NCBI GenBank assembly: GCA_051362555.1
Contig: CM120647.1
Coordinates: 2,108,001 to 2,172,000, forward strand
Source: Lingula anatina
Taxonomy: Eukaryota > Animalia > Brachiopoda
Length of the DNA stretch: 64,000 nucleotides
Direction: 5' to 3'
This document shows positions 3,082-60,600 of the stretch, one piece after another. Numbering within the stretch: position 1 is the stretch's first letter; every line of letters begins with the position of its first letter. The notes beneath the pieces were generated by a model. The model saw nothing but the letters and a program-made list of their open reading frames with translations. It did not search any database and was not told where the DNA came from. Position numbers and translations under genes: made by a program.

Positions 3082-3306
3082 GACTGGGTTCCCACAGATT
3101 TAGATCGATCCATATAGATCGACCTAACTCCCCGGGGGTTCAGCTAAATTGATGTCAGCTTCCGGGAGCCAAGCGCGCACAAAAGTTAATTACTCCCATG
3201 CAGCTTTTAGTAGGCGGGTTAGACATTTAAGCCGGTTAAGCTGACAGCAATCTAGGGAGACTCCCCAGGGGGATAGATCGATCTAAATATCTGTGGGAAT
3301 GGTCTC
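3082..3306. mobile_element. Palindromic MITE family A (PIF/Harbinger, Tourist-like)
   Basis: TTCCCACAGATTTAGATCGATC ... GATCGATCTAAATATCTGTGGGAA inverted ends; homologous to copies at 16318, 23873, 28216, 34681 and 56972. Confidence 0.8.
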
Positions 3307-12389: not shown

Positions 12390-12477
12390 CAGGCCTACCC
12401 AACTATCAGACTGGCACCGAATGATCCTGAATTCACCGGTAGATCGGACCACACTGCCAGTTTTCAAGGTGTGCGTC
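12390..12477 (+). mobile_element. MITE family C left arm (host of the 3.8-kb insertion)
   Basis: CAGGCCTACCCAACTA...CACCGAATGATCCTGAATTCACCGG matches the inverted arm at ~60250-60343; the sequence resumes at 16279 (TGCGTCAGTACGCG). Confidence 0.8.
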
Positions 12478-12724
12478 TGTTAAGATACTTCATGGTATAT
12501 TACCACTTCATAGGATAAGAATTACTACTTCATGATAGAAGGCGACTTCATTGGTTAAAAAATAAGGACCCTTAGGAGACTTCGTAGTATATTACCACTT
12601 CATGGTACATTGTTTCCAAACATGTTTCAGTTCTGGTTGGATGTGGAAATTAGGCGTAAAGGTCGATATGAAGTTTCATTCTAGACCATGATTTCCAGAG
12701 TGACGCGTGTATTTGAAACGGTGT

Positions 12725-12755
<31 letters not shown>

Positions 12756-15700
12756 GGGGAGGAGTAACATTACTCAAGATAGTGCGTATTTTATCTCGTT
12801 GGAGAAGCTGTTATTTTCAGATGTTCTCGTAGATACCCGTGAGATTAACTTCTATAAATAATGTACTTAATTTCAAGAGCTCCGGTCCAGTGACGGAAAG
12901 CATAAAGCTAGTTTTTTGTTTTACCCATTTAGTTTTGAGATATTTCAGATTTCAGGACGAGTGAAAACTGACAATATTTGGACGTTGAATCATGGCAGGT
13001 CTAAGGCACTAGATGTATGAGACAAACGAAGTGTATAAGTAAACACATTGCCTGCCTTTTAACTAGGGCATAAAACTGACCATGTGTGGTTTGATTGACG
13101 TACGGCGCAGGTTTATAGATATGGCTAGTACACAGCAGCAAGAATGTACGTCTTTCCACTGTAGGTAGAGAACTCTACTAGGCAGAGAGGTTTTAATTTT
13201 GCTCCACACTAGGTGTACATTAATATCTTTAACAAACCGTCTATTCCATTATTCGTGTTATAGAAGTGTCTCTTTTGTAACTATGACATAAATGTTATGA
13301 CTTGCAATAACAAGCTATAAAAATAGGCTTTTCTATTGATATGCAACATAAATGTTTCGAAAATATCTCGGTCGTTTAAAAAGATTGACCTCCTGGCCTA
13401 TATACTTAATGAAAACGCTTAGGTCGGAAAGTCTGAAATCTGAATGATTTGAAACGGTCAACTGTCCAGATAGAAGAATGAGGGGAGAATGAAATACTGG
13501 GGATTCATAAAACTGGTGTAGAGCCGCATTTTGCAACTGCAACGCATTTTTCAACCAAAGAAAATCGTGAAAACGAATTTTTCAACCGGAACGCATTTTG
13601 CAACCAGAATTTTTTCTTAGTCAATAAATAGCTAGTGTGAAGTTCTATAGAGGTAGAATTGGAATGGGGACGGGGTTGTCTCGGCTAGGTACGCTTACAT
13701 TGGTCAAGCTTTCCCTGTGGTGGACAATTCATTATATACATACATAATCTATTTCACATTGTTACTTCCTAAACCATCATAGTTAGGAACTTGATACGTC
13801 GGGGATTAATAAACCTATCATTAAAGGAATTTGCAAAGGCTCTTCGGAATTCAATTGTGACTTGGGGTGTGGTCGACCCTGGGGGTGGTCTATTCTAATT
13901 TTTACATCGTATTTTATGCTAGGAACATGAAACATGGCTACATACTATTTTGAATGTGGAATGTCACTTCGGATTTATTTATTTTTTTTGGTGGGGGGGG
14001 GGGGGGCTGGGGGCGGTTGAGTCTAATTGACATTGTGTTTCCTGCTATATTTATCCTTAAGACCAATAAAGCTGGGAACGTAATGCTATGGGGATTGAAA
14101 AATCTGCCTTAGGGGATGTGTATGGGTCCTTCTGGGTTTTTGTGACATTGGGTGTGGCCGTCCCTGGGGAGGTTGATTTTAAATTTTACATCGTTATTCG
14201 TGCTTCTGCCCTTACGCCATTACAGTTGGGAACATGAAACCTTCCGGGCTGATAAGCTTACCATTGAGGATATGCATATAGGTTTCCGGGAATGTTAGTA
14301 TGATATTTCAGGTGTGGCTATCCCGGGGGGTGGTTGATTCTATTTTTCACAACTTTATTTCTGCCATCTATACACTTAAATTTTAAGGAACATGAAACGG
14401 AGATTGATGAACCAGTCATTTTAATGAATGTGCATGGGTCCTTGAGAAATGTAGAGAACAGCAGAAGCACATACAGAACTAAATGGACTTCCAGCCATAT
14501 GCATAAATATAGGTCAGGGAATCCAATTAAAAACTAATTCAAGGCCCCACACACTCGATCAGGAATCCTAGCGTTTAACTGCTGTTGTGTCTTAACACAA
14601 AACAAAAATGTTTATTTCCCAAGAGCAGTAATTAATTAACATGTGTGTTTTATGTTAAAGAACAATGGGACTTGGACCCTACTAGGCTAGGATTCCTGAG
14701 AGTATGGGGTCTTGAATGGGTTTTAATTAACTTGACCTATATTCAAGAATACGACTGAAGGTCTGTCATTTAGTACTGTCTGCTGCTTTCTCTACATTTC
14801 CCCTTCCTTCCTTACTCGAAGACCGCCATCAGATTCACACATACGATGTAGTACTAGCTGGGTCGGTCCATCTCTGCAAGGAATCTTAAGTGCAATCTAT
14901 GGAATCAGCTTCATTGCCTGACAAACCACTAATCACTCCACCCCCTAGGGACGGCCACACCCCAAGTCACACTAATGTAGCCCACCCATGCACCAAAGAC
15001 TCATGTTCTTAATTCGAATGGTCTAGGGGGAGATGAAATAAATTACGGTAATATATATGTGTACCATCCCCAGGGACAGCCACACCCCAGGTCACAAAAA
15101 AATAAATAAATAAATAAATAAATAAACCTGCCTATGCACACCCCGACATTTTAGTTTCCTCAACCTAAAGACCTATGGGTGTATAGAAGAAAATACAATT
15201 GAAAGATAATAATCAACCACCCCTAGGTCACCAAAGTCACCAAAAATCCGAAGGACACGTGCACATCCCTAATGGCAAGTTTAAATATCCCCAACGTCTC
15301 ATGTTCCTCACTTTAATGGATAGAGGATACCAGTAACAACGATATAAAAAATATATACCCCCCCCCCCCAAAGGACTGCAAAGTCCCCCTACTAAAGGTC
15401 TACGGGTAGATAGAAGAAATTACGATGTAAAAATTACAATCAACCACAATAACAATTAACCACAATTCTGAATAAATATCAATCTACAAGCCTGTTGATC
15501 TCGCAGACCAACTACGTTAGGCTGCTAAACAACGAGTAGACCTACCCCCCCCCCCCCCCTCCGAACGCCTTATTAACAGTTTCAAAATGCAGACTGTGTC
15601 GCAGATAATACTTTCGGGTCAAATGAGAGCCAGCCAAGGGCACATTTCGGGGACACCATTGATCACATCATGATGGACATTCACAGGTGTAGGACCAGAA

Positions 15701-16278
15701 CAGAGCATCTCGGAAACCAAGGGACAGACGTAAATCATTACACTTGCGCGTGTCTTTCCTCATGGAAAAATTAGTCTTATAATCCAGTAACCTACGCGTA
15801 AATTATGTTTTCATAGCCTGGTTTACCTGATCTATTAGTTTTATGCATCAAGCGTATCAGGGAAGGGAGGGCCCAGGGGGTCTGGACCCCCTTTTCTTCA
15901 ACGCTGACCATAATGTCCCATAATGTACTGATTTTTAGAAATACTGAATCCTCACCTACATACGCCTGTGTATTATAAAATTACTCAAAACATGCATTCA
16001 ATACCACTAAAGAAACCCTTTTCAGTCATACAAGTGAATTAAAACGTACAGTTTACCTATTTTGGATAATATTTACAGTACAAAAACAATATATTTCAAA
16101 AACGTTCTCTCTCATAGCGTTGGGCCAACAACAGGTACTATTTCACCATTATCCCATGAAGTCGCAGGCAATATCTTATGTGGAGATGAAGTCGCAAAAT
16201 ATCCTATGAAGTCGATTTGACAGTAAAATCAGAGCATTTATCCTATGAAGTGGTAATATACCACGAAGTATCTTAACA
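12478..16278. mobile_element. 3.8-kb TIR element, TGT...ACA ends, 6-bp TSD, superfamily unassigned
   Basis: 41-bp TIRs, 40/41 identical (TGTTAAGATACTTCRTGGTATATTACCACTTCATAGGATAA); TSD TGCGTC at 12472-12477 and 16279-16284; the empty-site sequence is seen in the family C copy near 60250. Confidence 0.85.
14444..14802. mobile_element. Fold-back MITE nested in the 3.8-kb element
   Basis: GAAATGTAGAGAACAGCAG ... CTGCTTTCTCTACATTTC, with further inverted blocks (AATATAGGTCA/TGACCTATATT, CAGGAATCCTAGC/GCTAGGATTCCTG). Confidence 0.7.
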
Positions 16279-16317
16279 TGCGTCAGTACGCGTTAGGCGA
16301 TTTGCCTAATCGTCTAA

Positions 16318-16532
16318 GACCCCATTTCCAGAGATTAGATCGATCTACTTTAGATCGACCTAACTCCCTGGGGGTTCACGCTAAATAGCTGTCAGCCGAG
16401 CGGACACGAAAGTTAATTACCCCTTTACAGCTTGTAGTAGGCGGGACGGACATTTAAGCCGGATTATCTGACAGTTATCTAGTGAGACTCTCCGCGGGGA
16501 TAGATCGATCTAAAAGCTCTGGGAATACAGCC
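16318..16532. mobile_element. MITE family A, TAA TSD
   Basis: TAA on both flanks; near reverse complement of 56972-57186. Confidence 0.85.
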
Positions 16533-18378
16533 TAAGGCTCGTGGCTGACTAAAGGGGTTTTAGTGTCTTTTAGCTCGATTTTCGACCTAATATCTCATCC
16601 CACGAGCTAAAATGTATATCTAATCACCACCTTGACAGATAATTCTTCTCGCTATGGCTACTTGTGTCACTTGGTTAAGTCATTTGGGTTGATCGTTCCT
16701 GAAGGCTCATTTCTAATGAAACTATCGTTGTGCGTACATGTAGATCGATTCAACTCCGCGGGGACTCTTGCTGAATGCAATCAGATTAACAGGCTAACAC
16801 GCTTCCCCCTGGCGTTGGAAACAAGAGATACTTTAACTGAGAATGAGCCCAAATCGTTTAGTTGTTTTTTTAGTTAAGAAGGGCATCCTGAGCTCAATTA
16901 ATTTAATTTTTATGAAACTCAGCCCAGACTACCAGCTTTGTGCTAGTGTGAATTCGTGTGTGCTGAGTGCCCCAAGTTATAGCCATTCTGTTTCACAAAT
17001 GAATTACAGCTCGAAAATTCATCGGAATATTTAGACCATTATTTTAGTTAACTTTGACCCAAGGTAAAAGTTTATTACAAAGAAACAATGGCTAAAATTA
17101 ACCTCATTTACATTGGACGGCGTCCTTGCTGCGTCCTTTGCGCGACCATGAAACTGGCATCGCTGTGGTCGTAGAAAGGAGGCACAAGCATCGCTTCGGT
17201 TGCAGAATGAATGCTCAATGATCGGCCAGTTGTCGGCACGTAAAGTATTATGTTTTCACTCTAAAACGGGGCCGTGATACGATACATGTACCTTCTTTTT
17301 AAGTGGACAATTACTTACGAATTTATTATGGACTAAAGAAGACTAAAAGTCAGGCTTAAAAGTTGAGGTATGGGCTAAACACCCTTTTGTGCCACCGAAC
17401 CATGATGTTAGTTTAGTCGACTTCATGTATAGTTGTCGGTTAGTTAGCTAAACTAAAGACGTGGTCACACCGAACACAAATAAGTGAGTAAATGTAGGTA
17501 CGGTAACGTATTTAATGGGGGGGGGGGGGTCCTGAACCTACCCCCTTCGGTTTTTAGGGGGAAAAAACACACTAAAAACGTCTTTCCGCTGACCTATCGA
17601 TTCCTCTGAACTCATCAATTTTAATTTTTTTTAAACAAATAATTCTGATGTTTTTAGCCAGATGTTGTGCTTGAATCTTGTAATTTTGTCATACTTTTAG
17701 ACATACTTTTGTCAGACATTTAGGGATACTTCATACCAAAAACGTACATCAAAGCCCTATCAAAGATCTATAACATTATCATTACGTGTTTTGGTTATAT
17801 AAACGTTATAATGATAACGCTATATTAATTTTCTTTGTTTACTGTGCACGACGTACCCGGTATGTCTAACGAACCGCCTGCGTATATCTGCGTATGTGTA
17901 GAATTTCTTATACGTGCTATACGCTACATATATATAGTGGGACAGGACCTTTAAACAGAACATGTTTGGCTTACTGGCGTATTTTAAAGCTTTATGAATG
18001 TAATTTGTGCACTTTGTGTACAGAGTCAGCGCAAGGTAGCGGGTTCATTCGTTTTATATTCGTCCAAGTTGTATACTACGTGTATATTATTGAAGGGTTT
18101 CAAGTTCCAACACTGAAATAACAAAGCTCAAAGTGTACGCATTTTATACTGATGTTAGACTACGCATATCATTTTACCGTGACAACGTGGCCCGGATGCC
18201 GTCTGTGAGTTGGCTGGGTATGGTTGGGGGGCGGGGGGGGGGGGGGGGGGAGGGGGGGGAAGTTGTCGTTTGGGAAGCGAGGAGATATAGAGCGATCCTG
18301 TATTCTAAAGTGCTAGTGTTCCTAGCCAGACCTACCAGACTCGGCACCGAATGATTCCGAATTCACCGCCGGGTCTTC

Positions 18379-19339: not shown

Positions 19340-19731
19340 TCACAAGTTGTTTGACGTCTGTGATGCCGAGCTAAAGGTGGACACCTTTCTCACATTTAGA
19401 GTTTGCTGGGTCATCGACTTCACCATTTTCCTCGTGGACGGAGGCTTGTAGCAATAATGAGCGAGGAAGAAGAACAGGGCAGTCAAACACTTGACGCCGA
19501 GGCCGAGGAAGAAGAAGTTCCTCCCCATCAAGGCGCTGTCGTAAATCCAACACGAGCCGTTCTCCGTGCAGTTCTGCTGCCAGAGCTGACACGTACCGTC
19601 AATGATGGCGCCAAACAGGATTGGACCCGGTACCGTGCCTGCAATGTCAAGGTCACATAGTCAGCCTATACATACACACACACACACACACACACAGTAC
19701 CGTGCCTGCAATGTCAAGTTAACATGGGCAG

Positions 19732-19787
<56 letters not shown>

Positions 19788-22700
19788 TATACATAGAACA
19801 TTGTTTGAACATGTTTGTATGTACTGGTATGTACGTAGATATGCATACATACATTTTACACTAGATTATCTTTTGTATCATTTGCTAAAAACAAAGGCAA
19901 CCAAGCCTAAAGTTATATCTTTATACATGTATATGGTGGACGGCTATATTCTAATACAAAATAACAACTAGTACTGAGAATACAATAATTACGGTCGCAT
20001 TTGAAGTATATTATGTGAGATGTGCTACTTTGAGATGCGACAACTTCGTGGTAACTGACAATAATGTGGCTCTCTCCGAATAACAAAAAAAAACGCAAAA
20101 TTCTCTCGAAGAATGAACGAATTTTTATGTTAATTTTAAAAATTGTTACCTAAGAATCTGATGAAAACCCACTGCAATCCAAGACCAAAGGCTCTCTGTC
20201 CGTCAGGAATACACCTGGTAAATATAATATAATATAATATAATATAATATAATATAATATAATATAATATAATATAATATAATATATAGCACCGGTATGA
20301 TATGAGCTGTAACAGTACCGCCATCTATTGCGCGTTTCACCAGGAATACAACTGGTAGAGATATGTGAGGTCACCAGAAAATACATGTATAATCTCATAA
20401 TATCGTCGGCATTGTGACGTCATCTGTTATATTTCGACCATAGAGAGGTTTGAATCTTTCATTTTTTTTTTTTTTTTTTTTTTTTTAGCTTCCAAAGATG
20501 TAAACAAATTGAATGACACATGATTTCGATGTTACTCATCTGGTTATTTGTACAAGCACGAAAAGTTACTTTCATAATGTATTTAATGTGTTTGTTGTCA
20601 TGTTTATATGAACCAAAAAAGACAAACAATAAATGTACGTTATCTAAATTCTTGTTTACTGCACATTTTTCTACTGTCTCATAGAATTTGGTTTTCGTAA
20701 ATTTACCTATGTTACAAGATACGATAAGGCCCATCCCACCCAAAGCATTCCTCTAAGACTAAAACCCTAATGACCGCTTGATTGCAATCATCCACACCGT
20801 ACCTGAGAGTAACAGAGGTGGCCGGGGTAGCCGACATGAACGTAAATAGTATCAGCACCAAAGCAATGGGTAAGAACAGGTACAGCGTCCAACACTCGGC
20901 GGTACAGCGTCCTGTCTTGATGCTGGCCGCAGCCGAGACGTTTGACCCCAGCTCCTCGGCGATACAGCTACAGTCTGTGTACACCTGAAAAATGTGGAGA
21001 AAATGTGACCGTGGACACACCTCACGTATGGGGTATAGTCAGGGTATACTGTATGCTTCTTATGGGAATAATCCAGTGGTTCAGCTTTTTTTCTAATATA
21101 GCATTATCTTTTGAACACGAAACATGTCTTTTAAAGCGGAATTCCAGGATTGAACCGTTTTACAACCACTATAGCTGGTATAAAGTGTAAATGAATTAAT
21201 GTGGAAATTTGACCAAAGTTTCGGACTGTCAAAGTGTGCCAATATTATTAGAAACGTATTCTAGCCGGATGCAGAAAAGAAAATAAAACATTTTTATTTA
21301 TTCCCCGATTTTCATTTCCTGGTTCCTTCCGCAACGCATAAAAACTATTTGCAGTTTTCAGAAAAACATGTCATCAACATCATACGTCAGTGTAAAAACT
21401 CTCTCGGGACAAGTTTGTACAATTTTCAGTAATGAGCATCGGTTTCAATACTTTGAAATACATTTCTAGTTATAATCTAAGATCTAATAAACAGATCTTA
21501 GTTATAACCAATGTGTTACCTTTGATCCGTTGACCAGCGCAGACGACAGACAGCCGGCGTGACAGGGGGTGAAGTACTCCTGGCCATTCAGACAGATCGG
21601 TTCAAAGCTGGAGGTGGTGCACCCGCACCCGGCGTTACACTCTGCTGTGATGTTGTTAACTTGGACGGTGGTGCTGTAATGTTATACAGACAACATTCAA
21701 ACAAACAGAATAAAAAACAAAACAGAAAATAAACTATTGAAACTGGACCTGGAAGGATACAAAAATGGCGCTGACATCACAGGTGTAGAGGTGGAACCGG
21801 TGTGACAGGAATGGTATTCCTAGGAATGGAAGTCCGGGCTCCCATATATTTATATAATTAATTAGTACAGGTTTAGGTTAGTCGGAGTATTGAGGTTATT
21901 ACATGGGACGAGTGCCACCTGTACAAAGTAACAGGGAACCGAGTTGTTAACAGCGGATTTCCATTCCCGTTACACCCGACCCCGTTTCACATAAGACGTC
22001 GAATGCACAACGGAGTTAAGATTTTACACCAAAATTATTTAGCCGACTTTGATCTAGCAGAAGACTTGGGCCACGCTCTTTGTATAAAGTACTATCAAAC
22101 GGATAATTTACAAAATGCCATATTAGCTTTATGGTTAAAACAAGATATTTATTTTTTTTACATAGGTGTCATTGAGCAAAACAAGGATCGGAGTGTGGGA
22201 GATTTTTGAAAAAAATCATGTATGGCGTGATCCTTATAAAAGTGTCAACCTTTTCGAATTCCTTTTTTTTTTTCAGTCCAACAGTATTCTCTCACATTTC
22301 TTTTGGGTGGAGTCTAAATGAGTGCCTCAGGCAATACTGGTACAAAAAGATGTATACAGCAGGCCTTAAATAACTCCCCAAACATTGTCCAAAGTCTACG
22401 ACCCTGCACACAGTACCTGTTTGGGTAAGGTATGTCAACTCCGAATACGGACGGCGTTTCACAACTGATCCAAAACGAGGCAGCCAGCAGTGCTGCCATG
22501 ACGCAGGCTGTCATACTGAGCTTTAACATTCCTTTCACTTTCAGTTTCAATTTGCTGGAGATAATGCCGCCAAGCAGCTGACCACCTGCCGCCCCGGGAA
22601 CGGCCACGAACCCTGGAATAGGTCAAGGTCAGAATAAGCAAACTTGTGTGCACGCTTCTTCACTATGTAAAATCTTCAAATAATGAATAAGGTTTTGAAA

Positions 22701-25051
22701 CAGCAACAATCCCTTCTATGCTTTTCATTTAAGTTGAATATATCTCATGCAAATATTACAGTTGTCAACTTTCTCTTCCTAGGTTCGTAAAATCGTTGGT
22801 ATTCCGCACAAACGACTGCAGAATGTGATGACCAAGGTTACCCCGGCCACCTCCCTGGGGATAACACTGACAGGTAATTAAAGCTTTATTTAACCCTAAT
22901 CTAAGACACTTCTCCCCACCTGTCAACATGGCCGCCCAGCTGGCCGTCAGTCCAAACTGGTTTTGTAAGAGTTTGGGGAGAAATGTAGCGAAGCCACTGG
23001 TGACTAGCCCTTCAGTGCAGCCAGCCAGCGTCACGAACACGAACGTTGGGTTCTTCAGAAGAACCTGAAATATTTCACTTCAAATGATTAAATTTTTTCC
23101 ATGCTTTGTGTTGCGTTATACGACAGATATTTGGATCGATCAATGATAACAGAGAGCTGATCTGATGATTTAAACTTTCTGGTTTTGTTATTAAGCCGTC
23201 ATGTAAGGGTGTATCTAAACTACGCTTGGGCGAGTCTCATGAAATGTACAATATCAACCCATATTATAGGGTTGAGGTGATTTCAATGCAAAATAGAAGC
23301 ACAAAACAATATACTTATTAATCAGATGAAATTAAGTCACATACACTGTGACGTCAAATGAATCTATCTACATACTTTCACAGACTTTTGCATTAAAATA
23401 TTCGGAGTCCAAAGCTGAATATCACAAAATCAAACAAGTTGAAATTTGCACATAAAAGATGACAAAAAGCCACATGTCCACACATGTCTACAACACATTT
23501 CTTCCCTCAGAAGACGTACCTTTGCCGCGGTTGGCATGTCCCTGATTGACTTTCCAAATCCAGGTCGGTTGACTTCGTCTTCGCCGCCATCTTGGTGGGC
23601 CTGGGACTCTCTGGTTAATCGCACCTCCTTGGCGGCTGGAAGTATCAATCACTTCACTGATCACTCCAGAAACTCAGCTGAATGACTTCAGTGCGCTTTA
23701 CTCGGGATTGACAAGAGCACACAATGTACTGGTTAGGAGAAATTCCCAAATCTAAATTTTTAGGCTAGGCGCATAGTTAGGTGTTTAGTGACGTCATAAT
23801 ACTTAGTACACTAGTGTCGTCAGACGCGTTTCATAAAATAGAAGACCAGTATATAAAGGGTGACGTATTTTAGACTGGGTTCCCATGCCTAGATCGATCC
23901 ATCTGGATCGGTCTAAATCCCTGGGGAGTCTCACTAAATTGCTATCAACTAACCGGCTGAAATGTCTGTCAGGCCTACCGAATCAGCTAGGGGGTAAAAT
24001 AATTACCCTCAAGCAGCTATACTAAGCGTGACAGACATTTAAGACGGTTACGTTGATAGCAATTTAGTGAGACTCCCCAGAGAGATGGATCGATCCAAAT
24101 ATCTGTCTGAATGGTCCCTTAATCTACCCTACTGTCATTCAATCAGGAGAACGGGGCGTATCCCCCGTGAACCCCTGACTTACTGGGGAGCTCCCTGGGG
24201 TAAGCACACAGAGCCACGGTCACCGTCCACGCTAAGAAACCAGCCATCACAAACCCCAGCCACCATGCTCCAACCCAGCGAGGATCTTGTGGGGTTATGT
24301 TGACACTGAAACGAACACGTGCACGCACGCACGCACGCAAATACACTGAATTAGTATGAGATGGACAGAAAAACATATGATCGATCAATAAATTTAAGTT
24401 TCATTTAACGTTTCTTTTATGTCATCAGTGATTGAATCAAAAATTATATTCGATAAATTAGATCAAAAAATTTAAATTCTGCAAATAGAGAGATAGCCAA
24501 ATGCCAATTTAAAATGTTTGAATCCTATTATTATCTCCTAGAGTTCTGTACATGTATCAAGGATTACTTAGTATCGTTATCAATAGAGTACTTATATTTC
24601 TCTCTGTCGTATATACATTATTTTTGAAATTATAAATACAAACAAAACTGATATATTAAACTCACTTTTCTACATTAACATTTTCAAAGTCGACGTAGAT
24701 ATTAAGGAACTGGCCTCCGACTATGTATCCAATTGCTGGCCCCAAAGCGGAGAACGCGTACAGAATGCCTGGATATGGGAGAATAGCGAGATAAACATTT
24801 TGGTATATTCAAATTGCAATTTGATGTTATACTATATTATTCTTTTAAAAATTAATAATAATAATAATAATAATGTGAATTTGTTCTAGCACAATTATTT
24901 TACCATAGGACATCAAATCACACGTCACATAAATATGAACTTAAGCTCGTATAAGCAATAATTACCTGCTAATCTATAATAAGGGCTTAACAACCTACAT
25001 ACCCATCTAATATGTAGTAGAGTGAGTGTAAAGCTACAAATCTCTCCCTCC

Positions 25052-25084
<33 letters not shown>

Positions 25085-28000
25085 AGAAAGAGGGAGGCGG
25101 CATCGTGTACTAACCTATGTATATAGGCGACACCTTGGTCTTCACGTTCTCGTCTATAAACACTGTCCCCAGGGAGTACAGTGTGGTCCCGCCCACCCCG
25201 TGCAGCAGCTGTCCCAGGATCAGTACGTACAGGTAGTTCTGGAGGTACGAGTTCTGTGGATTAACGGTACACGCTGTGGAGTTCCCAGTGCCTGCCGGAT
25301 ATTGAATGATAGGTTAATATTGCTGAGTGAGGAAATAATGCTGTGAGGGCCGTGGTCAAGCCCTGAGTTTCAGAGGCTACTTGAGACTAACCTCTCTGCT
25401 ATAAGCACAGCTCAGCCGTTACCAGGGCCATCTGAAACTCTGGTTGACTAAACAGTTTATTCCAACGAAATAATGTGTATAAAACGCGTATTCTAAAATC
25501 AAATTAAGAAAAAAAACCAATGACGAAATGTATCTTTTAAGATTTAGAATAAAACTTTTTTTTAGATTTAAAATTCTATAAATCGTCTGTTGATTAGAAA
25601 TGGTAGCGTCTGCGACAAGTCAGTCAGTATTGAAACCTTGTGCTTTGTAGATAAAACATTTTTAAAAACTCTTTTGAGGCGATTTACTTTTTTTCACGTA
25701 ACAATGTGACAATATAAAAATGCTAGTTCAACTCTGCGTTGACAGCATTGTGTGTGGAAATTAAATCAATGGAGATTATGTCTGCACTTTCCCCGCGTTG
25801 GCTGTCGCCCCCCCCCCCTTTTACCTGTACATGTATATGCAATGGTGCCTCTCAACTGATATAACATTACCTGTACATGTATCTGCAATGGTGTCCCTCA
25901 ACTGATATAACATTACCTGTACACGTATCTGCAATGGTTCCTCACAACTGATATAACATTACCTGTACATGTATCTGCAATGGTTCCTCTCAACTGATAT
26001 AACATTACCTGTACATGTATCTGCAATGGTACCTCTCAACTGATATAACATTACCTGTACATGTATCTGCAATGGTACCTCTCAACTGATATAACATTAC
26101 CTGTACATGTATCTGCAATGGTGCCCCTCAACTGATATAACATTACCTGTACATGTATCTGCAATGGTACCTCTCAGCTGATATAACATTACCTGTACAT
26201 GTATCTGCAATGGTACCTCTCAACTGATATAACATTACCTGTACATGTATCTGCAATGGTACCTCTCAACTGATATAACATTACCTGTACATGTATCTGC
26301 AATGGTACCTCTCAGCTGATATAACATTACCTGTACATGTATCTGCAATGGTACCTCTCAACTGATATAACATTACCTGTACATGTATCTGCAATGGTAC
26401 CTCTCAACTGATATAACATTACCTGTACATGTATCTGCAATGGTGCCCCTCAACTGATATAACATTACCTGTACATGTATCTGCAATGGTTCCTCTCAAC
26501 TGATATAACATTACCTGTACATGTATCTGCAATGGTTCCTCTCAACTGATATAACATTACCTGTACATGTATCTGCAATGGTGCCCCTCAACTGATATAA
26601 CATTACCTGTACATGTATCTGCAATGGTGCCCCTCAACTGATATAACATTACCTGTACAGGTATCTGCAATGGTGCCCCTCAGCTGATACAACCCCGTGG
26701 TGAAATGTGGCATGCTCATCACTAGAGAGCCACACCCCATGATGAACGCTGCTGTCGACAGCAATCTGGAAATATGAACAGTTTATTACTGAATATATCC
26801 GAAAAATATGAGTCTCTGATTTTCCTCAAAATGCTTTGAAAATAATACTTGAAAGTGCTGATTCAAGAGAAAAGTTGGTATCCTTCTTGCCAAAAGGTAC
26901 ATTGCAGTATGTGTTTGAAAGTGACACAGGTATCAAAAGAATAAAATGTTATATAAATGTTGAAATTTGTATGGATGTGACTAAACTAATCAATGAGACA
27001 TGTACATAAATGGAAACATGTAATTAATTTAACGAATGTTGTCCATCAGCTATCACCCTACAGGATAATTCCCGTGGGAGGCACCCTGAGCTTCAGAGAT
27101 AACTTGACACTAACCTCTTCACTATTAGCCTATCTTCATCGTGTCAAGTTACCTCTGACGAAAATAGTTTGACCTAGTTTATATAAGCCAATCGAATCCA
27201 TGTTTCAAAATTTTTCACCAAAGTTTGGTGAAAACGCTGATTGGTTGACCGTCAATCGGCAATCCTCGGCTGATTCCGCAAGCTCCACACTAACAACATA
27301 GTTATTGTCGAGTGCGGAGACATCCGAGTAGTTCCGAGTGCATAACCGTACACAAAGAAAGCATGGAGTATATCGGAATTGAAACCAGAGCAGTTTGATG
27401 CCCTGCATAATTATCTACTGAGGGATGATGTATTTTGCGTGCTGCCCACAGGTTACGGCAAGTCCCTGATATTCAGCCTTATCTTTGATTGGTCCGGATT
27501 TGAACAAAGCGCGCTTTGACTCGTTCGCGTTCATTGGCTAGATCGTTCAATGAGTCATTGAGTGCGGGCTTTAAATTTGATTGGCGGGCGGCGGAGGCAA
27601 TCGAATGTGGTCAGAGGTAACTTGACACGATGAAGATAGGCTATAGAGAAGAGGTTAGTGTCAAGTTATCTCTGAAGCTCAGGGTGGCTGTACGTGGTCG
27701 CGCTTCGCTTGGGAGGGGTCTCTTACATCAATTTTTTTTTACAGAAGAGTGCATGGTATAGGAGCATTTCTTTCTTTTTTTTTTTTTTTTTCATAAAAAT
27801 TTATTTGTTTAAGTTTTCTGCGGTTGAAATCCAAGATCTAATGCATTCTCAAACCAGAATTGCGTTGTGTTGGGCAGTTGCCCTGAAGCCTGGTTTGGTG
27901 GCGGATGAGTGTGGGCACATTGTTCACAAGACAAAAATTCACTGATGTACTTGAATATATTTACGTACCTCGGTTTGTGCGCGTGCGCCCTAAAGTAACT

Positions 28001-28942
28001 AATGAGAATGACGGTGGTCCCCGCCGCAATGTCGTAGGCGCTGGAGACGAGGCCCACGCGAGAACTGGGCAGGTTAAAACGCCTCTCTACAGACGTGGTG
28101 TTCACATTGTTGATGCCATTCACAACAAGACCTGGAAAGAAGGAAAACGAGGATTCATATAATGCACACCACCATCAAGATAAAGATGTATGCAGGCATT
28201 CCATTTACAGCCATAGGGTGCTTTCCCAGAGATTTAGATCGATCTAGAGATTAAGATTTAGATCGACCTAACTCTCTGGGGGTTCACGCTAAATTGCAGT
28301 CAGCCGAGCGGGCACCATAGTTAATTACCCCCTTACAGCTTTTAGTAGGCGGGACAGACGCTTAAGCCGGCCAAGCTGACAGTAATCTAGTGAGACTCCC
28401 CACAGGGATAGATCGATCTAAAAATCTATGGAAATGGGGTGATAGATTAAGCTGGTAAAATACATTTACTATGTCGCAAGGGCACAAAATTGGACTACCT
28501 TGGAATAAGTCCTTGTGATTAGGTCGAAACGTCGTGATCTCCATTTCAAATTAAGATCCAGTATTAGATTTCTCATTATCTCAGCATGATGTGATTGGAT
28601 GAATCGAAATATTAATTTTGATAAATACTAGATTTCTTCGATTCGTGAGAAAAAGAGAATAATTAGAAAAAAAAATCAAAAGAAAAACAAAAAGGTAGTT
28701 TATTCACCTTGTATCGTAGTAAACCAGCACATGAAGACGAGAAAGGCTTTCGGGTTGTTGCACACCTGAAGCCAGCCCGGTCTGCACCCCCTGTAGCCGC
28801 ACCCCGGGGGAAACTCCGGCTCTAGGCGGAACTCGCGGTCAGCTTCGGCTTCTATCGCCTTTTGACGGACGGGATCGTCAATTTCCGTCGACATGTAGCC
28901 ATTATCGCTAGTCCGTTTTAGTTCAAATCCTTTCGAAGGCAT
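19340..28942 (-). CDS. SLCO: Organic anion transporting polypeptide (OATP/SLCO family, SLCO4-like), paralog 1, 689 aa
   Basis: 13 phase-consistent GT-AG exons: 28942-28708, 28131-27969, 26765-26653, 25291-25115, 24768-24666, 24305-24184, 23635-23520, 23064-22920, 22612-22417, 21673-21520, 20984-20803, 20214-20150, 19638-19340 (2070 nt). OATP signature DPRWVGAWWLGF, ERRF..SS..G...S.YD, Kazal-like CNAGCGC..FEPIC..YFTPCHAGC, PGPILFGAIIDGTC..W. Confidence 0.95.
19672..19783. repeat. (CA)n tracts inside a duplicated splice-acceptor segment
   Basis: GTACCGTGCCTGCAATGTCAAG occurs at ~19630 and ~19697, each copy followed by a CA tract. Confidence 0.85.
20221..20286. repeat. (AATAT)n pentanucleotide microsatellite
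   Basis: Directly visible; abuts the acceptor of SLCO exon 12. Confidence 0.95.
21797..21978 (+). mobile_element. MITE family E
   Basis: GGTGTGACAGGAATGG...CCATTCCCGTTACACC; a second copy lies at 62203-62368. Confidence 0.7.
23873..24118. mobile_element. MITE family A (fully palindromic variant), TTA TSD
   Basis: TTA on both flanks; long inverted arms; in SLCO paralog 1 intron 6. Confidence 0.8.
25821..26692 (-). repeat. 46-bp minisatellite, 19 copies, made of the SLCO exon-3 3' end plus GTAA donor
   Basis: Unit TTACCTGTACATGTATCTGCAATGGTACCTCTCAACTGATATAACA starts every 46 bp from 25821 to 26649; the last copy is the real exon end. Confidence 0.95.
27082..27686 (+). mobile_element. Internally deleted TIR transposon with RecQ-like helicase remnant (Academ-like)
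   Basis: ~77-bp TIRs CACCCTGAGCTTCAGAGATAACTTGACACTAACCTCTTC...; 27352-27480 translates TKKAWSISELKPEQFDALHNYLLRDDVFCVLPTGYGKSLIFSL (SF2 Q-motif plus Walker A). Confidence 0.8.
28216..28441. mobile_element. MITE family A, ATA flanks
   Basis: Homologous to 16318-16532; ATA on both sides. Confidence 0.8.
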
Positions 28943-29739
28943 CTTTTGTCTCTCTATATCTACTGTCTGGTTTTGGTGGTGATATTTTCGTGCGTTCCTA
29001 AAGTTTTAATGTGTGCGTTATAATGAAGTAATTCACATCCGGTCAGATATCAGACCGACGGCGTGTCATTATTTATAACTAATATTCCAGGTATTGATTT
29101 GCGCACCTGTATCCATTGACGTGACGTAACGTTGACGTGACGTTGACGTGAAGTAATTTTTGAAAAGAATCACATATAATATCCGTATCCTGCTTAAAAA
29201 TTAATATATGTTTGAAGTCTTCTCATCGCTGTGTGTGTCTTATAGAAATTCTGTTTCACTAGATATCCAGTAGTGTATATCGGAGTGATCAGTCTCCACT
29301 TGGTCTCTGACAATGTTCACTTGGTCTTTTACAATGTTCACGACGTTATGGTATATCGTTTTTTAATCAGATACTTCCACAGATAACCACGCAAGGGTAG
29401 GTTACGCAAGACGTTCAATTCTTGTTAATAATGCACGAGCCATCACGTTCCATTGTTTGAATGTAGGCGACTGTCTTCGTCATATTAGACAATATTAGGC
29501 TTCTGAAAGGATAAAAATAGAACGAAATAAAACAGTTTATAACGTGTATATATAACACATTTAAGTGTACCCGCACAAAAATGCAGTAGTAACGAGGTAG
29601 CATAATAGCATTAGTGCAGCAGTGGTGTGGAATATGTTTGTAGTAGAGATGCAGTATAGCCTACTGTACTTCTACGCAAAAAACACATAGGGATGTACAG
29701 AGAGAGGAGAATTAATGCCAATTAAACTGCTTTTGCAAC

Positions 29740-42690: not shown

Positions 42691-43014
42691 TTATGCATAG
42701 GAGCGTCTATCTTCCCACCTCCTGGGCGAGCATACCCCCTCCCTTCTAGACTATATATTATACATAGGAGCGTCCATCTTCCCACCTCCCTGGCGAGCAT
42801 ACCCCCTCCCTTCTAGACTATATATTATACATAGGAGCGTCCATCTTCCCACCTCCCTGGCGAGCACACCCCCTCCCCTCTAGACTATATATTATACATA
42901 GGAGCGTCCATCTTCCCACCTCCCTGGCGAGCACACCCCCTCCCCTCTAGACTATATATTATACATAGGAGCGTCCATCTTCCCACCTCCCTGGCGAGCA
43001 CACCCCCTCCCCTC
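42691..43014 (-). repeat. 67-bp tandem repeat (~4.8 copies) of the fucosyltransferase C-terminal codons and stop
   Basis: CATAGGAGCG recurs at 42696, 42763, 42830, 42897 and 42964. Confidence 0.95.
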
Positions 43015-44594
43015 GCCACCATTGGTCAAGGTTCTTATACCACGTGGGTTTTCTCTCTCCCACCTCCTGCATCTTCCTGCACAGTCGGCACCAGAAGAAC
43101 GTGTTCACCGAATGAAAGGAGCTCTTCCAGCGGAAATACTCGTTGTAAAGATCGTCATTTTTGTCGAGTTTGTGCAGATATTCAGCCAAAACCTTGGGGC
43201 TTTTGAAGTCATCCACGTTGATATAGGAGTGCGGAGGTGCTGCCCTCTTGTAGTCGTCTGGGCGACCCCCCATTGTGATTGGTATGACGTCGTGCCTAAA
43301 AAAGGATTTCGTAAAATACGTGTTATAGGCAGTTTCGCCCAATGTCTTCTCACGTTTACAGACAGAGATGGAAGTATGTGAGACAGAAAAGGGTGGGGCG
43401 TAGAATGGCGGACAGGGTTAAACAAAGACAATTAGCACGTAGGACGGACAAAAAGGGTAAAAATGAGAAAAAGGGCGGTACATACAAAACAACCACAATA
43501 GTTAAAGGGAATAAAATCATTAGAACCTTACATTTTATGCAAATATAATGTACTCGTAGGTACTCTGCAGAGGATAGTCAGGGAAGTTTTTGCAGTTTTA
43601 CCGCACATGTGCGCTGTTATGCTTACTAGTATACAAAAAAAACGTTTAACATGTATCTTTCCGAATCAAGTGAAAGACGACGTGGGCAAAAATGAGATTC
43701 GTCTTTGATGTTGGCAGAAACACACGACAAGTTATTTTTCCAGCAACGATCTGTCACCTTTATCCTATAAACATTTATTGGGATCCAGATTGATTAACCT
43801 TACCCTAAACCATTCAAAAAGAACTTCTCAGTGATGTAATCTCTGCAGTTCGAATTTTCAAACGATAAATAAAACTTGTAGTCCCTGTCCAAAATATCCA
43901 GGCAATGGGGGTCTTCCTTTGAACACGTCTTAATACCACATCCCCCGTAAATGTCCACTGGCATGTGTTTATTTAACTCCTCTGCATATCGTCTCCGGCC
44001 GTTCCTGTCCCCGCCACAGTTGGAGACAAACCAGGCTATTTTCTTAGTCTTCCCCGCCGCATAATTCTTCTTCGTCGGTTTTGGTGTGTTGAAGGCGGAG
44101 TCGTGGCCGGTAGTCATATTACCATAGGGAACATAGGAGCCGTATGGAGCCATGAGTGTGGAGTCGGTCCTGTAACTGACCGTCCAGTTGATTAGGTTGT
44201 TCAGTCCTTCCAGCCTGGGGGTGTGGTGGGGGGACTCCAGCAGGTACAGGATCCAGATCTGGTGCCAGGGTTTGCGATGCCATGGTTTGACGGCCTGACC
44301 CATTAGAAGGATGGCGTCTGCCTTCGACGCCATTGCCCTATCCGCTGTCACGAAGCAGTTCTTAACAGGGCAGTCATCTGCGTTGAATTGTTCCTGTCCC
44401 CCCTGCATCCCCGCCGGTAAGCCGGTGTACACCAAAATAAGCTTGAGTCCCGCGGAAGAGGCGGCAAGGGCGTCATTTTGGTATAAGTTCACGGTCTGTC
44501 TGCCTCCGCTATACGATTTGATATACGTCCAACTTACAACGAGAAAACATGTCAAGGAGATGCCATACACTATCCGCTTCAAGTGGCACCTCAT
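42959..44594 (-). CDS. Alpha-1,3-fucosyltransferase (CAZy GT10, FucTA-like), 375 aa
   Basis: Exons 44594-43804 and 43295-42959 (GG|GTAAGG ... TTTAG|G; 1128 nt). N-terminal TM anchor IVYGISLTCFLVVSWTYI; motifs ESP, NWTVSYRTDS, AWFVSNC, YKFYLSFENSNCRDYITEKFF, YNEYFRWK. Confidence 0.93.
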
Positions 44595-49862: not shown

Positions 49863-50089
49863 TGTACATGTGTTGCCTTCAAGTAATTGATTCCCTCCCC
49901 CTTGGTGGTAGACGACGCAGTAATAGCCGGTTCGTAGAAAAGATCATGAAATAAGCGAAGCTGGTAGTAAGAGTATATCACCAATCCTCATCGTAGGTCT
50001 AAAGCCCCTACTCTCGACACTTAATGACTTTGTGCGATCTGATTGGTCGAGGTGAGCTGAATATGGAAGTATATACCCCGCCTCCACCC

Positions 50090-54623: not shown

Positions 54624-54656
<33 letters not shown>

Positions 54657-57600: not shown

Positions 57601-60600
57601 TACGATTAAAGTAATATAAGTTCCGATTTCGTACGAGCACCAAAGAAAGGATTATGAAGTAACATACATCGACAACAACACTAATTCATGTATAGTCATT
57701 TCACATCATTTCCAAAAAAATTGACGACTAATTTTAGTACAAGAACCCGGGACTCTTTCACGTTGTTAAATTTCAGTCTCTCGGTTGAAATAAAAAACCC
57801 GATGTTTTTTAACGCGCTGCAAGAAAAAAAAAAGAAAAGAAAATGCCCCCTACCTCCAGAATGTTACGACATGTATTGTTATAGACAGGTATGAATCAAA
57901 TTCAAACAGGCTAATTCAACTTTGATGGAAGCTGTCAAGCGCACACGACTATGAATGACTGTTGTTTTTTTTTTAACAAACGTCAAATACAATTACTACA
58001 CTCTTCTCTCCGAACATGTAAAACTCCAAAATTCACATCTTTTGATTGACAAGATGCCAATCAAATCCATCAGTTTTGAAAGCTGCTGTCAAGTAGTAAC
58101 AGCTTGATTGGCAGGTTATATAAACAAACGTCGATCAAAATCATTACTATAGTCGTCTAACACGTAAAGTTGCAGCTTCCTACATCCTTTGATTGACAAG
58201 CTGCCAATCAAATTCAGTTAGTTTTGATAGTTGCTGTCAAATAGTAACAGCTTGATTGGCAGGTTATATAAACAAACGTCAATCGTCGTGCACTGTGATT
58301 TCTCTTACTGTGAAGCAGTGAGTACGCCAAAAGAGAGCGCTAAAATCTGAAGTTAGTAATTAAATTGCAAAATATTTCAAGAGAATATGTGAAACATGTT
58401 TCCAAAACTAGTTCTCTTTTTGAACCCTTCAGCGTGTCTAATACGACACTCTAGATTACAAACTATTTTGTAAAAAGAAGAATTTAGCAAAAGAAACCAA
58501 TTTAAAAACAGATTCAAGTAAAGAAACATGACATTTGACTTTTTTTTTTGTATTATGTTTGGAATATTGACAGATTCTTTTACTGTCAAAGTGTACTTTC
58601 TGCTAAATAAATAAATAAAACGATACTAATTCATCTTCATTAAAGGTGACATTCGTGTTGTGGTTGAAGTAGGTGGTTTAATTGGCTAAATGTTAGCAAG
58701 GACCCGTGATAATAAGTGGATGGGAAACAAAAATATTACTGTGAACAAAAATATTACTGTGAACTATTCTCTAGACATTTTCAACAAACAAACCGCTACT
58801 TCGCTCTTGTAACTATTTTGTTAGTTTATTTTACTGCAGTAAAGCGTGGATAAAATAGTTCCGAACGCCCTCACAGTGCCAGGGCAGGGGCGGATCCAGG
58901 ATTATTTGAAGGGGGGTCCGGAAGGACAGACCTCGGATACGAAGCCGACCATTGCCCCCTTTGTGTGGGGTTTGGGGCCTGCTCAACGCCCCCAACAAAG
59001 AATTATGTTTTGGAGAGCAAACAGTGCCCTTTGGTATGGTTTAGAACTATGATTTAGCTAGCCAAAATTCTAATTTCAAGAGGGGAATATTGGTGTGATA
59101 TATTTTTCAGAAATCGAAGGTGGGGTCAGGACCCCTTCACCCCCCCTCCCCTCCCCTCTAAATCCGCCACCGATAGGAGTGAACTGTCGTCTTAACTCTA
59201 GTGTGATAACCATATAATTATGTTTGGATGTTTTGAGACTGTGAGTTAAGATGTTTAGATTCGCTCTTGCACCAGGGTAGCACATGCAGGGATATTGATC
59301 TCAATGTTGTCTAAGTCGGGGTTTGTTTCATTGAGGTTTGCAAAAGTTTATTGCAGAAACAAGGGTGAATCGGAAACAACAATATTGAAATGTATCCAAG
59401 ATACATGTTATTAACGATGCATGCCCTCAATCTCATGATAGTAAAAACAATTCTAAGTATAATGGTTAAGCCTATTTTGACTTATGTATTTAGTTTGACT
59501 TATTTTTTTTTCTTATTGTTGTGACCGAAGTTTTTTTTTTTTTTTTAATTTAAAAAATTAAAAAATTTTAAAACATTATAGGTATGGATAAGATATAATG
59601 AAGAAGAATATCTTGTTTCAGTGACGTTGGCTTCACCAGTGTATGTAACACAGAGTGCGACTGCTCTGCTCTCCAGTACAACCCTGTGTGTGGATCAGAC
59701 CTGGTCACCTACTACTCCCCCTGCCACGCAGGCTGTCTCAACTGGACCACGATAGGGGGCGCCAAGGTACAATGTTAGAAGTTATTATCACATGCATTTA
59801 GTGAAATCTCGCGACTGTAAGACAGAATGCACACCATCACTGTAGCGTGTCACAAAACCGTTCTTTGGGTTTTCCTGTTTGAATGAATCTTGATGTTATT
59901 CACAAGGATTTTACTATGTGCCTTTGTTACAATTAAATAATTAATCTGACGCCTCAAAAGTTGCACATTTTTACGTACTTTTACATTAAGGATCTGTGAT
60001 TCTTAGTTCTAAATTGCTGGCAACTAACAAACAAGTAAAGAGACTGCTTTTTCACCGAATTATCCCGAATTCACCGGCAGATCGGACCACACTACCCGTT
60101 TTCAAGGTGTGTGTCGGTACGCATTTCACAGTATCATACCCTGAACAAATTTTGAGATGAGATGTACTACTTTCCAGCCCCGCTGAGAATCATCACTATC
60201 ACATCGCGTACTGGGCAAAAGCGGTGGCGCGTCTGATACTACAAAGCGCGTACTGACGCACATCTTGAAAACTGGCAGTGTGGTCCGATATGCCGGTGAA
60301 TTCAGGATCATTCGGTACCGAGTCTGGTAGTTGGGTAGGCCTGTTTTTAGTTATTAATCATTTATTGTTTTTGTTTAGACGTATACGAACTGCAGGTGTG
60401 TAGCAGCGAGTCCATCAGTGAATGCGACTGCCGTGGACAGTGCTTGTACTGGCCTGTGTCCAGTGGCGCCACTGGTCGGATATCTGTTCATACTCCTCAT
60501 ACTCATGTTATTGGTGTTTGCCGCCAGTGTTTGCGGAATTATGGGAACGTTAAGGTATTCATTTTTATTACTTCCAACTCCTTATCTTCTTGGCGAGTAA

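What the first reader, a model, noticed from the sequence alone, without database searches (positions are those of the whole stretch)
12478..16278. 3.8-kb TGT...ACA element with 6-bp TSD and Tn7-like arrays of repeated end motifs
Seen: 41-bp TIRs (40/41 identical) and TSD TGCGTC. The insertion is shown by interruption of a family C MITE whose uninterrupted sequence occurs near 60250. Inward-facing ACTTCA/ACTTCG motifs are repeated about 6 times at the left end (12487, 12505, 12527, 12545, 12578, 12597) and about 5 times inverted at the right end (16156-16268), often 18-22 bp apart. Known: TGT termini with several ~20-bp transposase-binding sites typify the retroviral-integrase clan (Tn7/Mu, IS481, Ginger). 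Ginger usually makes 4-bp TSDs and Tn7 5-bp, while eukaryotic 6-bp-TSD groups (Polinton, IS3EU, hAT6) have other termini. Inference: a non-autonomous member of an unclassified DDE family.
Basis: partly seen in the sequence, partly recalled or inferred. Interest (0 to 1): 0.7.

Follow-up and report, generated by a model that had tools for sequence, protein, structure and literature searches.

The report
CpG-targeting six-base-duplication DNA transposon
This is a gene-less jumping DNA element, present in roughly 10-30 full-length copies in an animal genome, whose copies sit next to a short CG-centred sequence; its ends suggest it is moved by an integrase-like enzyme, likely of an already known group, but the enzyme was not found.

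Summary
The element is real. It spans 12478-16278, with 41-bp terminal inverted repeats (40/41), TGT...ACA ends, a 6-bp duplication TGCGTC and 6+5 inward-facing ACTTCRT motifs. It interrupts a MITE whose intact copy lies at 60054-60343. It encodes nothing recognisable. Contigs from four DNA runs show the whole 3.8 kb is multicopy (about 7-33 times flank depth).

Other copies end at the same ACA and are followed by a CG-centred hexamer (consensus AACGTT in two runs; another 9 of 33 contigs per run fit TGCGT). This supports a 6-bp staggered cut at NRCGYN, though paired flanks of other copies could not be read.

The claim that eukaryotic 6-bp groups have other termini is too strong: IS3EU/GingerRoot makes 6-bp duplications and sometimes has TG...CA ends. 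That group has no reported base preference. Ginger1 shares TGTNR ends and a CG-centred target but duplicates 4 bp. Bacterial IS481 matches TGT, 6 bp and a palindromic target. The end arrays are not specific to Tn7.

Verdict: a non-autonomous integrase-clan DNA transposon with an unusual mix of features. The family cannot be assigned without its transposase.

The parts
12472..12477 (+). Left target-site duplication TGCGTC (CG at positions 3-4)
12478..12518 (+). Left 41-bp terminal inverted repeat, begins TGTTA
12487..12603 (+). Six inward-facing ACTTCRT motifs; 12572-12603 is a second copy of TIR positions 3-34 (87.5%); presumed transposase-binding sites
   Evidence: function inferred
12478..16278 (.). 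Whole 3801-bp non-autonomous element; longest stop-to-stop frame inside is 82 aa; no Pfam or Rfam match at cutoff; multicopy throughout
13774..14370 (+). Left half of a degenerate internal mirror array: 4 diverged units near 13856, 14007, 14141, 14311
14444..14802 (.). Nested 359-bp palindromic MITE (arms 67% alike) with 3-bp duplication CTT; its left junction lies in a contig at 33 times flank depth, so it is carried as cargo
14934..15447 (-). Right half of the internal mirror array: 4 units near 14971, 15096, 15227, 15447
16157..16269 (-). Five inward-facing ACTTCRT motifs; some other copies share only this last 130-140 bp
16238..16278 (-). Right 41-bp terminal inverted repeat, ends TAACA
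16279..16284 (+). Right target-site duplication TGCGTC
12390..12477 (+). Left part of the interrupted host MITE
16285..16292 (+). 8-bp continuation of the host MITE, then cut off by another repeat
60054..60343 (.). Intact copy of the host MITE giving the empty site

Best explanation
It is a gene-less, multicopy DNA element with 41-bp inverted ends and a 6-bp duplication, whose copies sit beside CG-centred hexamers, and it is likely moved by cut-and-paste in trans by a retroviral-integrase-type DDE transposase encoded elsewhere. Shown: the boundaries, this copy's duplication, the motif arrays, the lack of coding, the multicopy state, the shared right end and the CG-centred flanks. Inferred: transposase subunits bind the roughly 18-bp ACTTCRT-cored sites at both ends, bring the ends together, nick at the CA-3' termini and join them 6 bp apart across a target of the form NRCGYN centred on the CpG; gap repair then makes the duplication. 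The interior is passive cargo. Among known families IS3EU/GingerRoot is my single best guess (about 0.35), ahead of a Ginger1/2-related lineage (0.25) and an undescribed IS481-like lineage (0.2).
For: TIR, duplication and empty site. 11 of 11 sites share ACTTCRT, with G at +8 in 9 of 11 and A at +12 in 10 of 11. No ORF above 82 aa; 0 of 82 short frames and 0 of 6 read-through frames reach a Pfam cutoff. Selected interior contigs stand at 7-33 times flank depth in 4 of 4 runs., of 33 partly laid contigs per run: 6 (X1) and 9 (X2) leave at 16278 with consensus beginning AACGTT in both runs; 9 (X1) and 9 (X2) run on to 16283-16284 and then diverge (agreement 0.47-0.61); depth falls to single-copy level by 16286. 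Random flanks would run on that far with probability 0.003-0.022, binomial P at most 3e-8. TG...CA ends are those of the integrase clan. Copies sharing only the last 130-140 bp fit the motif array being the part needed in cis.
Against: No transposase or autonomous partner was found, so the enzyme class rests on the termini, and TGT...ACA also occurs outside the clan (PlavakaA, 2-bp TSD). Left and right flanks of other copies could not be paired; 6 bp for the family is deduced from the position of the CG, assuming a symmetric target. Three X2 contigs leave at 16279 with a consensus that would put the CG one base further out (unexplained). 67 loose-end rows were hidden, the aligner's scoring was modelled rather than known, and contigs are not independent (alleles, sites shared between runs). 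Described IS3EU/GingerRoot elements have no base preference and mostly TA...TA ends.
Confidence: 0.75

Rival explanations
1. Ordinary non-autonomous member of IS3EU/GingerRoot with the minority TG...CA ends; the CG preference is a family quirk (a sub-case of the best explanation).
For: 6-bp TSD; TG...CA in 5 of 77 GingerRoot copies; GC-rich targets (61% against 50%); reported in oyster, coral and fish. TIR of 36-43 bp in the IS3EU-related Styx/REP9.
Against: Complete Repbase IS3EU families 'always' have TA..TA ends; fungal ones TAYGG..CCRTA. No base preference in 72 GingerRoot or 36 REP9 sites.
Confidence: 0.35
2. A Ginger1- or Ginger2-related element whose stagger widened from 4 to 6 bp around the same central CG (a sub-case of the best explanation).
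For: TGTNR ends, TIR 40-270 bp, length 2.6-7 kb, targets CCGG (75%) or CCGT/ACGG (24%) in Ginger1. A Ginger2 MITE terminus matches 8 of the first 11 bases (compared by eye).
Against: Ginger1 and animal Ginger2 duplicate 4 bp, TDD-4/5 5 bp. At this site no 4- or 5-bp duplication fits symmetric ends. Repbase's rule (same TSD length, at most 1 mismatch in 11) is not met.
Confidence: 0.25
3. An undescribed animal lineage close to bacterial IS481 or IS1202 (a sub-case of the best explanation).
For: Most IS481 make 6-bp TSDs; ISLxc2 has TGT ends and duplicates the palindrome NCTAGN; IS1202 ends are TGT plus an internal second copy of the inner TIR, as at 12572-12603.
Against: Known eukaryotic IS481EU is confined to parabasalids, with 4, 15 or 25-bp TSDs. 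No prokaryotic genome held the end pattern (exact-pattern scan only).
Confidence: 0.2
4. Derivative of a non-integrase superfamily with 6-bp TSDs (hAT6, Polinton) or another cut-and-paste group with convergent TGT ends.
For: hAT6 and Polinton make 6-bp TSDs; arrays of short subterminal motifs are typical of hAT elements (own knowledge).
Against: Polinton ends are AG...CT type. hAT6 termini could not be checked in any paper held; I recall hAT ends as YA...TR, which TGT...ACA does not fit.
Confidence: 0.12
5. Solo LTR of a BEL or Gypsy retrotransposon.
For: TG...CA ends and 3-6-bp TSDs are LTR-element features.
Against: 41-bp near-perfect TIRs with mirrored motif arrays, 3.8-kb length, and relatives that share only the terminal 130-140 bp fit a DNA transposon.
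Confidence: 0.04

Closest known systems
IS3EU/GingerRoot (Cerbin et al. 2019, PMC6839031; Kojima and Bao 2023, PMC10045372)
   Same: 6-bp TSD, TIRs, multi-kb size, occasional TG...CA ends, GC-rich targets, present in marine invertebrates
   Different: Mostly TA...TA ends; no base-specific target reported; GingerRoot TIRs 100-150 bp; subterminal arrays not mentioned in the GingerRoot paper
Ginger1 and Ginger2/TDD (Bao et al. 2010, PMC2836005)
   Same: TGTNR termini, TIR and element length range, palindromic target preference, CG-centred in Ginger1
   Different: 4-bp (TDD 5-bp) TSD; targets CCGG/CCGT or RTATAY, not NRCGYN
Bacterial IS481 family (PMC10045372; ISLxc2 in PMC2516522)
   Same: TGT ends, mostly 6-bp TSD, duplicated palindromic hexamer with free outer bases
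   Different: Prokaryotic, about 1.1 kb, autonomous, target NCTAGN; the eukaryotic offshoot IS481EU has 4/15/25-bp TSDs
Tn7 and IS1202 family ends (PMC10132070)
   Same: TGT...ACA outer ends with extra internal copies of the binding site, arranged differently at the two ends
   Different: 5-bp TSD for the ISAjo2 group (and, recalled, Tn7); prokaryotic; no tns genes or sequence match here; the resemblance is architectural

Membership tests
IS3EU/GingerRoot | 6-bp TSD | tested here: met
   Direct for this copy; indirect for others
IS3EU/GingerRoot | TA...TA termini (TG...CA in a minority) | tested here: inconclusive
   TG...CA here: fits the 5 of 77 minority, fails Repbase's 'always TA..TA'
IS3EU/GingerRoot | No base-specific target | tested here: not met
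   Strong CG-centred preference against none reported; a descriptive trait more than a defining one
IS3EU/GingerRoot | Transposase in the IS3EU/GingerRoot clade | not testable with these tools
   No coding remnant; no assembly held
Ginger1 | TGTNR termini, TIR 40-270 bp | tested here: met
   TGTTA, 41 bp
Ginger1 | 4-bp TSD CCGG or CCGT/ACGG | tested here: not met
   6-bp TGCGTC; CG at positions 3-4 after the end in other copies
Ginger1 | Gypsy-like integrase with HHCC and GPY/F | not testable with these tools
   No ORF; partner not found
Ginger2/TDD | 4-5-bp TSD in AT-rich RTATAY | tested here: not met
IS481EU | TGT...ACA termini | tested here: met
IS481EU | TSD about 4, 15 or 25 bp; parabasalid host | tested here: not met
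   6 bp; animal-type host genes
Tn7 / IS1202 | TGT ends with repeated internal binding sites | tested here: met
   binding itself untested
Tn7 / IS1202 | 5-bp TSD and TnsB-like transposase | tested here: not met
   6-bp TSD, no such gene
Polinton | AG...CT-type termini, polymerase and integrase genes | tested here: not met
hAT6 | hAT-type termini and transposase | not testable with these tools
   Only the 6-bp TSD is documented in a paper read; termini recalled, not checked
Any Repbase/Dfam family | Same TSD length and terminal 11 bases with at most 1 mismatch | not testable with these tools
   Rule read; the databases are not available here

The most novel reading that the evidence does not exclude
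This is the non-autonomous trace of an undescribed animal lineage of integrase-clan DNA transposons that joins TGT ends and multi-site end arrays to a 6-bp cut centred on CpG: an IS481-like element in animals, or a Ginger with a widened stagger. It might read CpG methylation state when choosing targets.
Probability: 0.25. Interest if true: 0.65.

Novelty: new variant of a known kind. Interest (0 to 1): 0.42.

Why it matters
The eukaryotic DNA transposons related to retroviral integrases are few and poorly described, and they bear on where LTR-element integrases came from. In the papers read here, none combines TGT ends, a 6-bp stagger and a CG-centred target. If the partner transposase is found, it would allow a test of how stagger length and target choice change in this clan, and whether a CpG-seeking transposase senses methylation. 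If it turns out to be IS3EU/GingerRoot, the gain is modest: a first base-specific target for that group among the cases read.

Tried and rejected
No whole genome was held, so a genome-wide pairing of ends could not be run.

Exact TIR patterns found 0 hits in viral contigs, 0 in metagenome contigs and 0 in prokaryotic genomes. A looser pattern gave 2 metagenome hits. Both were rejected as chance: neither locus holds an inverted partner end and L001 has no other similarity to the element. L001's match is preceded by a CG-centred hexamer, and only about 4 kb inward of it was available.

No coding remnant: the best transposase-like Pfam hit was HTH_Tnp_Tc3_2 on a 29-aa frame, E 0.015, 16 bits against a cutoff of 31.5, among 82 frames; rejected. 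The read-through frames gave nothing; Rfam gave 0.

A window scan for other TG/TA-ended TIR pairs with duplications showed no second family member in the visible output, which was cut and swamped by TA repeats.

A shifted boundary with a 4- or 5-bp duplication was rejected: it breaks end symmetry, and the base after ACA varies among copies. Amplification of element plus host MITE as one unit was rejected: depth is single-copy by 16286 and the flanks diverge.

No RNA holder was listed, and no RNA run was laid, so expression was not examined. Earlier scan findings gave nothing relevant. PMC5718144, PMC12810828 and bioRxiv 2021.09.26.461848 (passages) gave nothing on this combination. The Kojima review 10.1266/ggs.18-00024 was not held.

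Full report
Observation. The element runs from 12478 to 16278 (3801 bp). Its 41-bp terminal inverted repeats match at 40 of 41 bases, begin TGTTA, and are flanked by TGCGTC at 12472-12477 and 16279-16284. A 32-base TIR pattern matches only these two places at up to 3 mismatches; 0 of 100 shuffles gave 2 matches. All 11 share ACTTCRT and weaker conservation extends to about 18 bp. Clusters of four or more in 130 bp occur nowhere else in the window. Positions 12572-12603 repeat TIR bases 3-34 at 87.5%.

Insertion. The left flank matches the intact palindromic MITE at 60054-60343 over 89 bp at 93%. On the right the match continues for the 6 duplicated bases plus 8 more, then another repeat takes over. 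In run X3, 31 contigs leave the reference at 12477 and continue as the empty MITE.

Interior. The longest stop-to-stop frame inside is 82 aa. None of 82 frames of 28 aa or more, and none of six read-through frames, reaches a Pfam cutoff; Rfam finds nothing. The interior holds a nested 359-bp palindromic MITE with a CTT duplication, inside a decayed mirror array of 4+4 units. Host genes (two OATP, GT10, GPCR) and CpG o/e 0.82 point to an invertebrate animal.

Family. No assembly was held, so I used contigs of public runs of the same organism label. All 30 bins are covered in 4 of 4 runs. The 4-5 interior contigs per run that I picked from the visible tables stand at 11-33 (X1), 16-20 (X2), 16-24 (X3) and 7-13 (X10) times the flank depth. 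The tool warns that depth is not copy number, so 10-30 copies is rough. A contig across the nested MITE's junction at 33 times flank depth shows the cargo moves with the element. At the right end, 63 of 97 contigs in X1 are under 95% alike, so older relatives exist as well.

Target preference. This is the main new result. I laid 16130-16288 on X1 and X2; 33 contigs per run fitted only partly. Six (X1) and nine (X2) leave exactly after ACA at 16278, and the consensus of what follows begins AACGTT in both runs and then differs. Nine in X1 (6+3) and nine in X2 run on to 16283-16284, so their flanks fit TGCGT, and then diverge with agreement 0.47-0.61. Depth drops to single-copy level by 16286, so these are different sites and not an amplified MITE composite. 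Under three modelled scorings a random flank would run on that far with probability 0.003-0.022; 9 of 33 gives P at most 3e-8. Caveats: 67 rows were hidden, the true scoring is unknown, contigs include alleles and sites shared between runs, one may be this locus, and three X2 contigs leave at 16279 with the CG one base further out. CG at positions 3-4 is seen directly; the fuller pattern NRCGYN rests partly on symmetry. A CG at 3-4 is what a symmetric 6-bp stagger predicts, whereas a 4-bp stagger would put it at 2-3. The base after ACA varies, so it belongs to the target. Paired flanks of other copies were not seen.

Mechanism. The most likely account (0.75) is cut-and-paste in trans by an integrase-type DDE transposase. 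It would bind the repeated sites, pair the ends, nick at CA-3' and join the ends 6 bp apart around the CpG. Binding, enzyme class and chemistry are inferred from the termini and from known families. That some copies share only the last 130-140 bp, just enclosing the five motifs, fits the array being the cis-acting unit.

Comparison. IS3EU and GingerRoot form one lineage with 6-bp TSDs; complete Repbase IS3EU families always have TA..TA ends, and GingerRoot occasionally TG..CA (PMC10045372: first part, passages and supplement part 1 of 18). In GingerRoot 5 of 77 copies have TG...CA, targets are GC-rich with no base preference, and relatives occur in oyster and coral (PMC6839031: parts 2-4 of 7, passages and supplement part 1 of 2). 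Its figures S4 (target logo) and S7 (coral termini) were not seen and bear on this. REP9/Styx has 36-43-bp TIRs and 6-bp TSDs with no consensus (PMC8232023, PMC10853768, passages). Fungal IS3EU ends are TAYGG..CCRTA (PMC12730594, passages and part 2). Ginger1 has TGTNR ends, 40-270-bp TIRs and 4-bp CCGG or CCGT/ACGG duplications; Ginger2 has 4 bp within RTATAY (PMC2836005, passages and Discussion; PMC3845634, passages). The GingerRoot paper calls Ginger2 a 6-bp-TSD group, but the source paper gives 4 bp in a 6-bp target. Most bacterial IS481 make 6-bp TSDs, and ISLxc2 duplicates NCTAGN with TGT ends (PMC2516522, passages). IS1202 and Tn7 ends have TGT plus internal binding sites, with 5-bp TSDs for the ISAjo2 group (PMC10132070, passages). 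Repbase classifies non-autonomous elements by TSD length and the first 11 bases (PMC4455052, passages); that test could not be run.

Novelty. Ten literature searches and the papers above showed no eukaryotic family with TGT ends, a 6-bp TSD and a CG-centred target. This is weak evidence of absence, since most such families are recorded only in Repbase or Dfam, and I recall unclassified Repbase entries named by a 6-bp TSD. Scans for relatives elsewhere found nothing real.

Verdict. A real, multicopy, non-autonomous DNA transposon that works like an integrase-clan element and fails at least one listed feature of every named family. I rate it a new variant of a known kind, interest 0.42. There is a 0.25 chance that it marks an undescribed lineage, which would deserve about 0.65.

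Noticed in passing
window 14444-14802: Nested 359-bp palindromic MITE with G(A/G)G...CCC ends and a 3-bp duplication CTT (Harbinger-like by recalled features), carried by many copies of the larger element; depth is higher here in X1, suggesting free copies too.
   Followed up: partly
window 13774-14370 and 14934-15447: Four diverged repeat units on each side, in mirror orientation around the nested MITE, 70-90% alike; a decayed foldback of about 1.7 kb inside the element, origin unknown.
   Followed up: partly
window 16141-16151: Contigs in both runs laid (3+2 in X1, 2 in X2) share the end only up to here and continue into unrelated sequence: possible sister or autonomous families using the same ends.
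   Followed up: no
window 15717: Contigs in X1, X3 and X10 (12, 8, 8) diverge here into a similar but different sequence, marking a second subfamily.
   Followed up: no
window 16279: Three X2 contigs leave one base later than the rest, with a consensus that shifts the CG by one base; an extra terminal base, a longer duplication or a consensus artefact.
   Followed up: no
window 16313-16533 (also 3089-3300, 28223-28423, 56971-57191): Extremely high-copy short repeat (summed contig depth about 2.5 million in X1) just beyond the point where the host MITE is cut off, 8 bases after the duplication.
   Followed up: no
window 12390-12477, 18332-18368, 60054-60343: Palindromic host MITE family of about 290 bp beginning CAGG; one intact copy and two fragments.
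   Followed up: partly
window 19340-29005 (-), 52119-61538 (+), 42959-44618 (-), 48732-49943 (-): Two multi-exon OATP transporter genes, a GT10 fucosyltransferase and a rhodopsin-family GPCR frame; with CpG o/e 0.82 this points to an invertebrate animal. The element lies about 3 kb beyond the last OATP exon found.
   Followed up: partly
window 42849-43006: Tandem repeat with a 67-bp period overlapping the end of the fucosyltransferase's last coding frame.
   Followed up: no
L001 4012-4051: Loose-pattern hit with three ACTTCAT motifs and a CG-centred hexamer beside it, but no partner end within the locus; treated as chance.
   Followed up: yes
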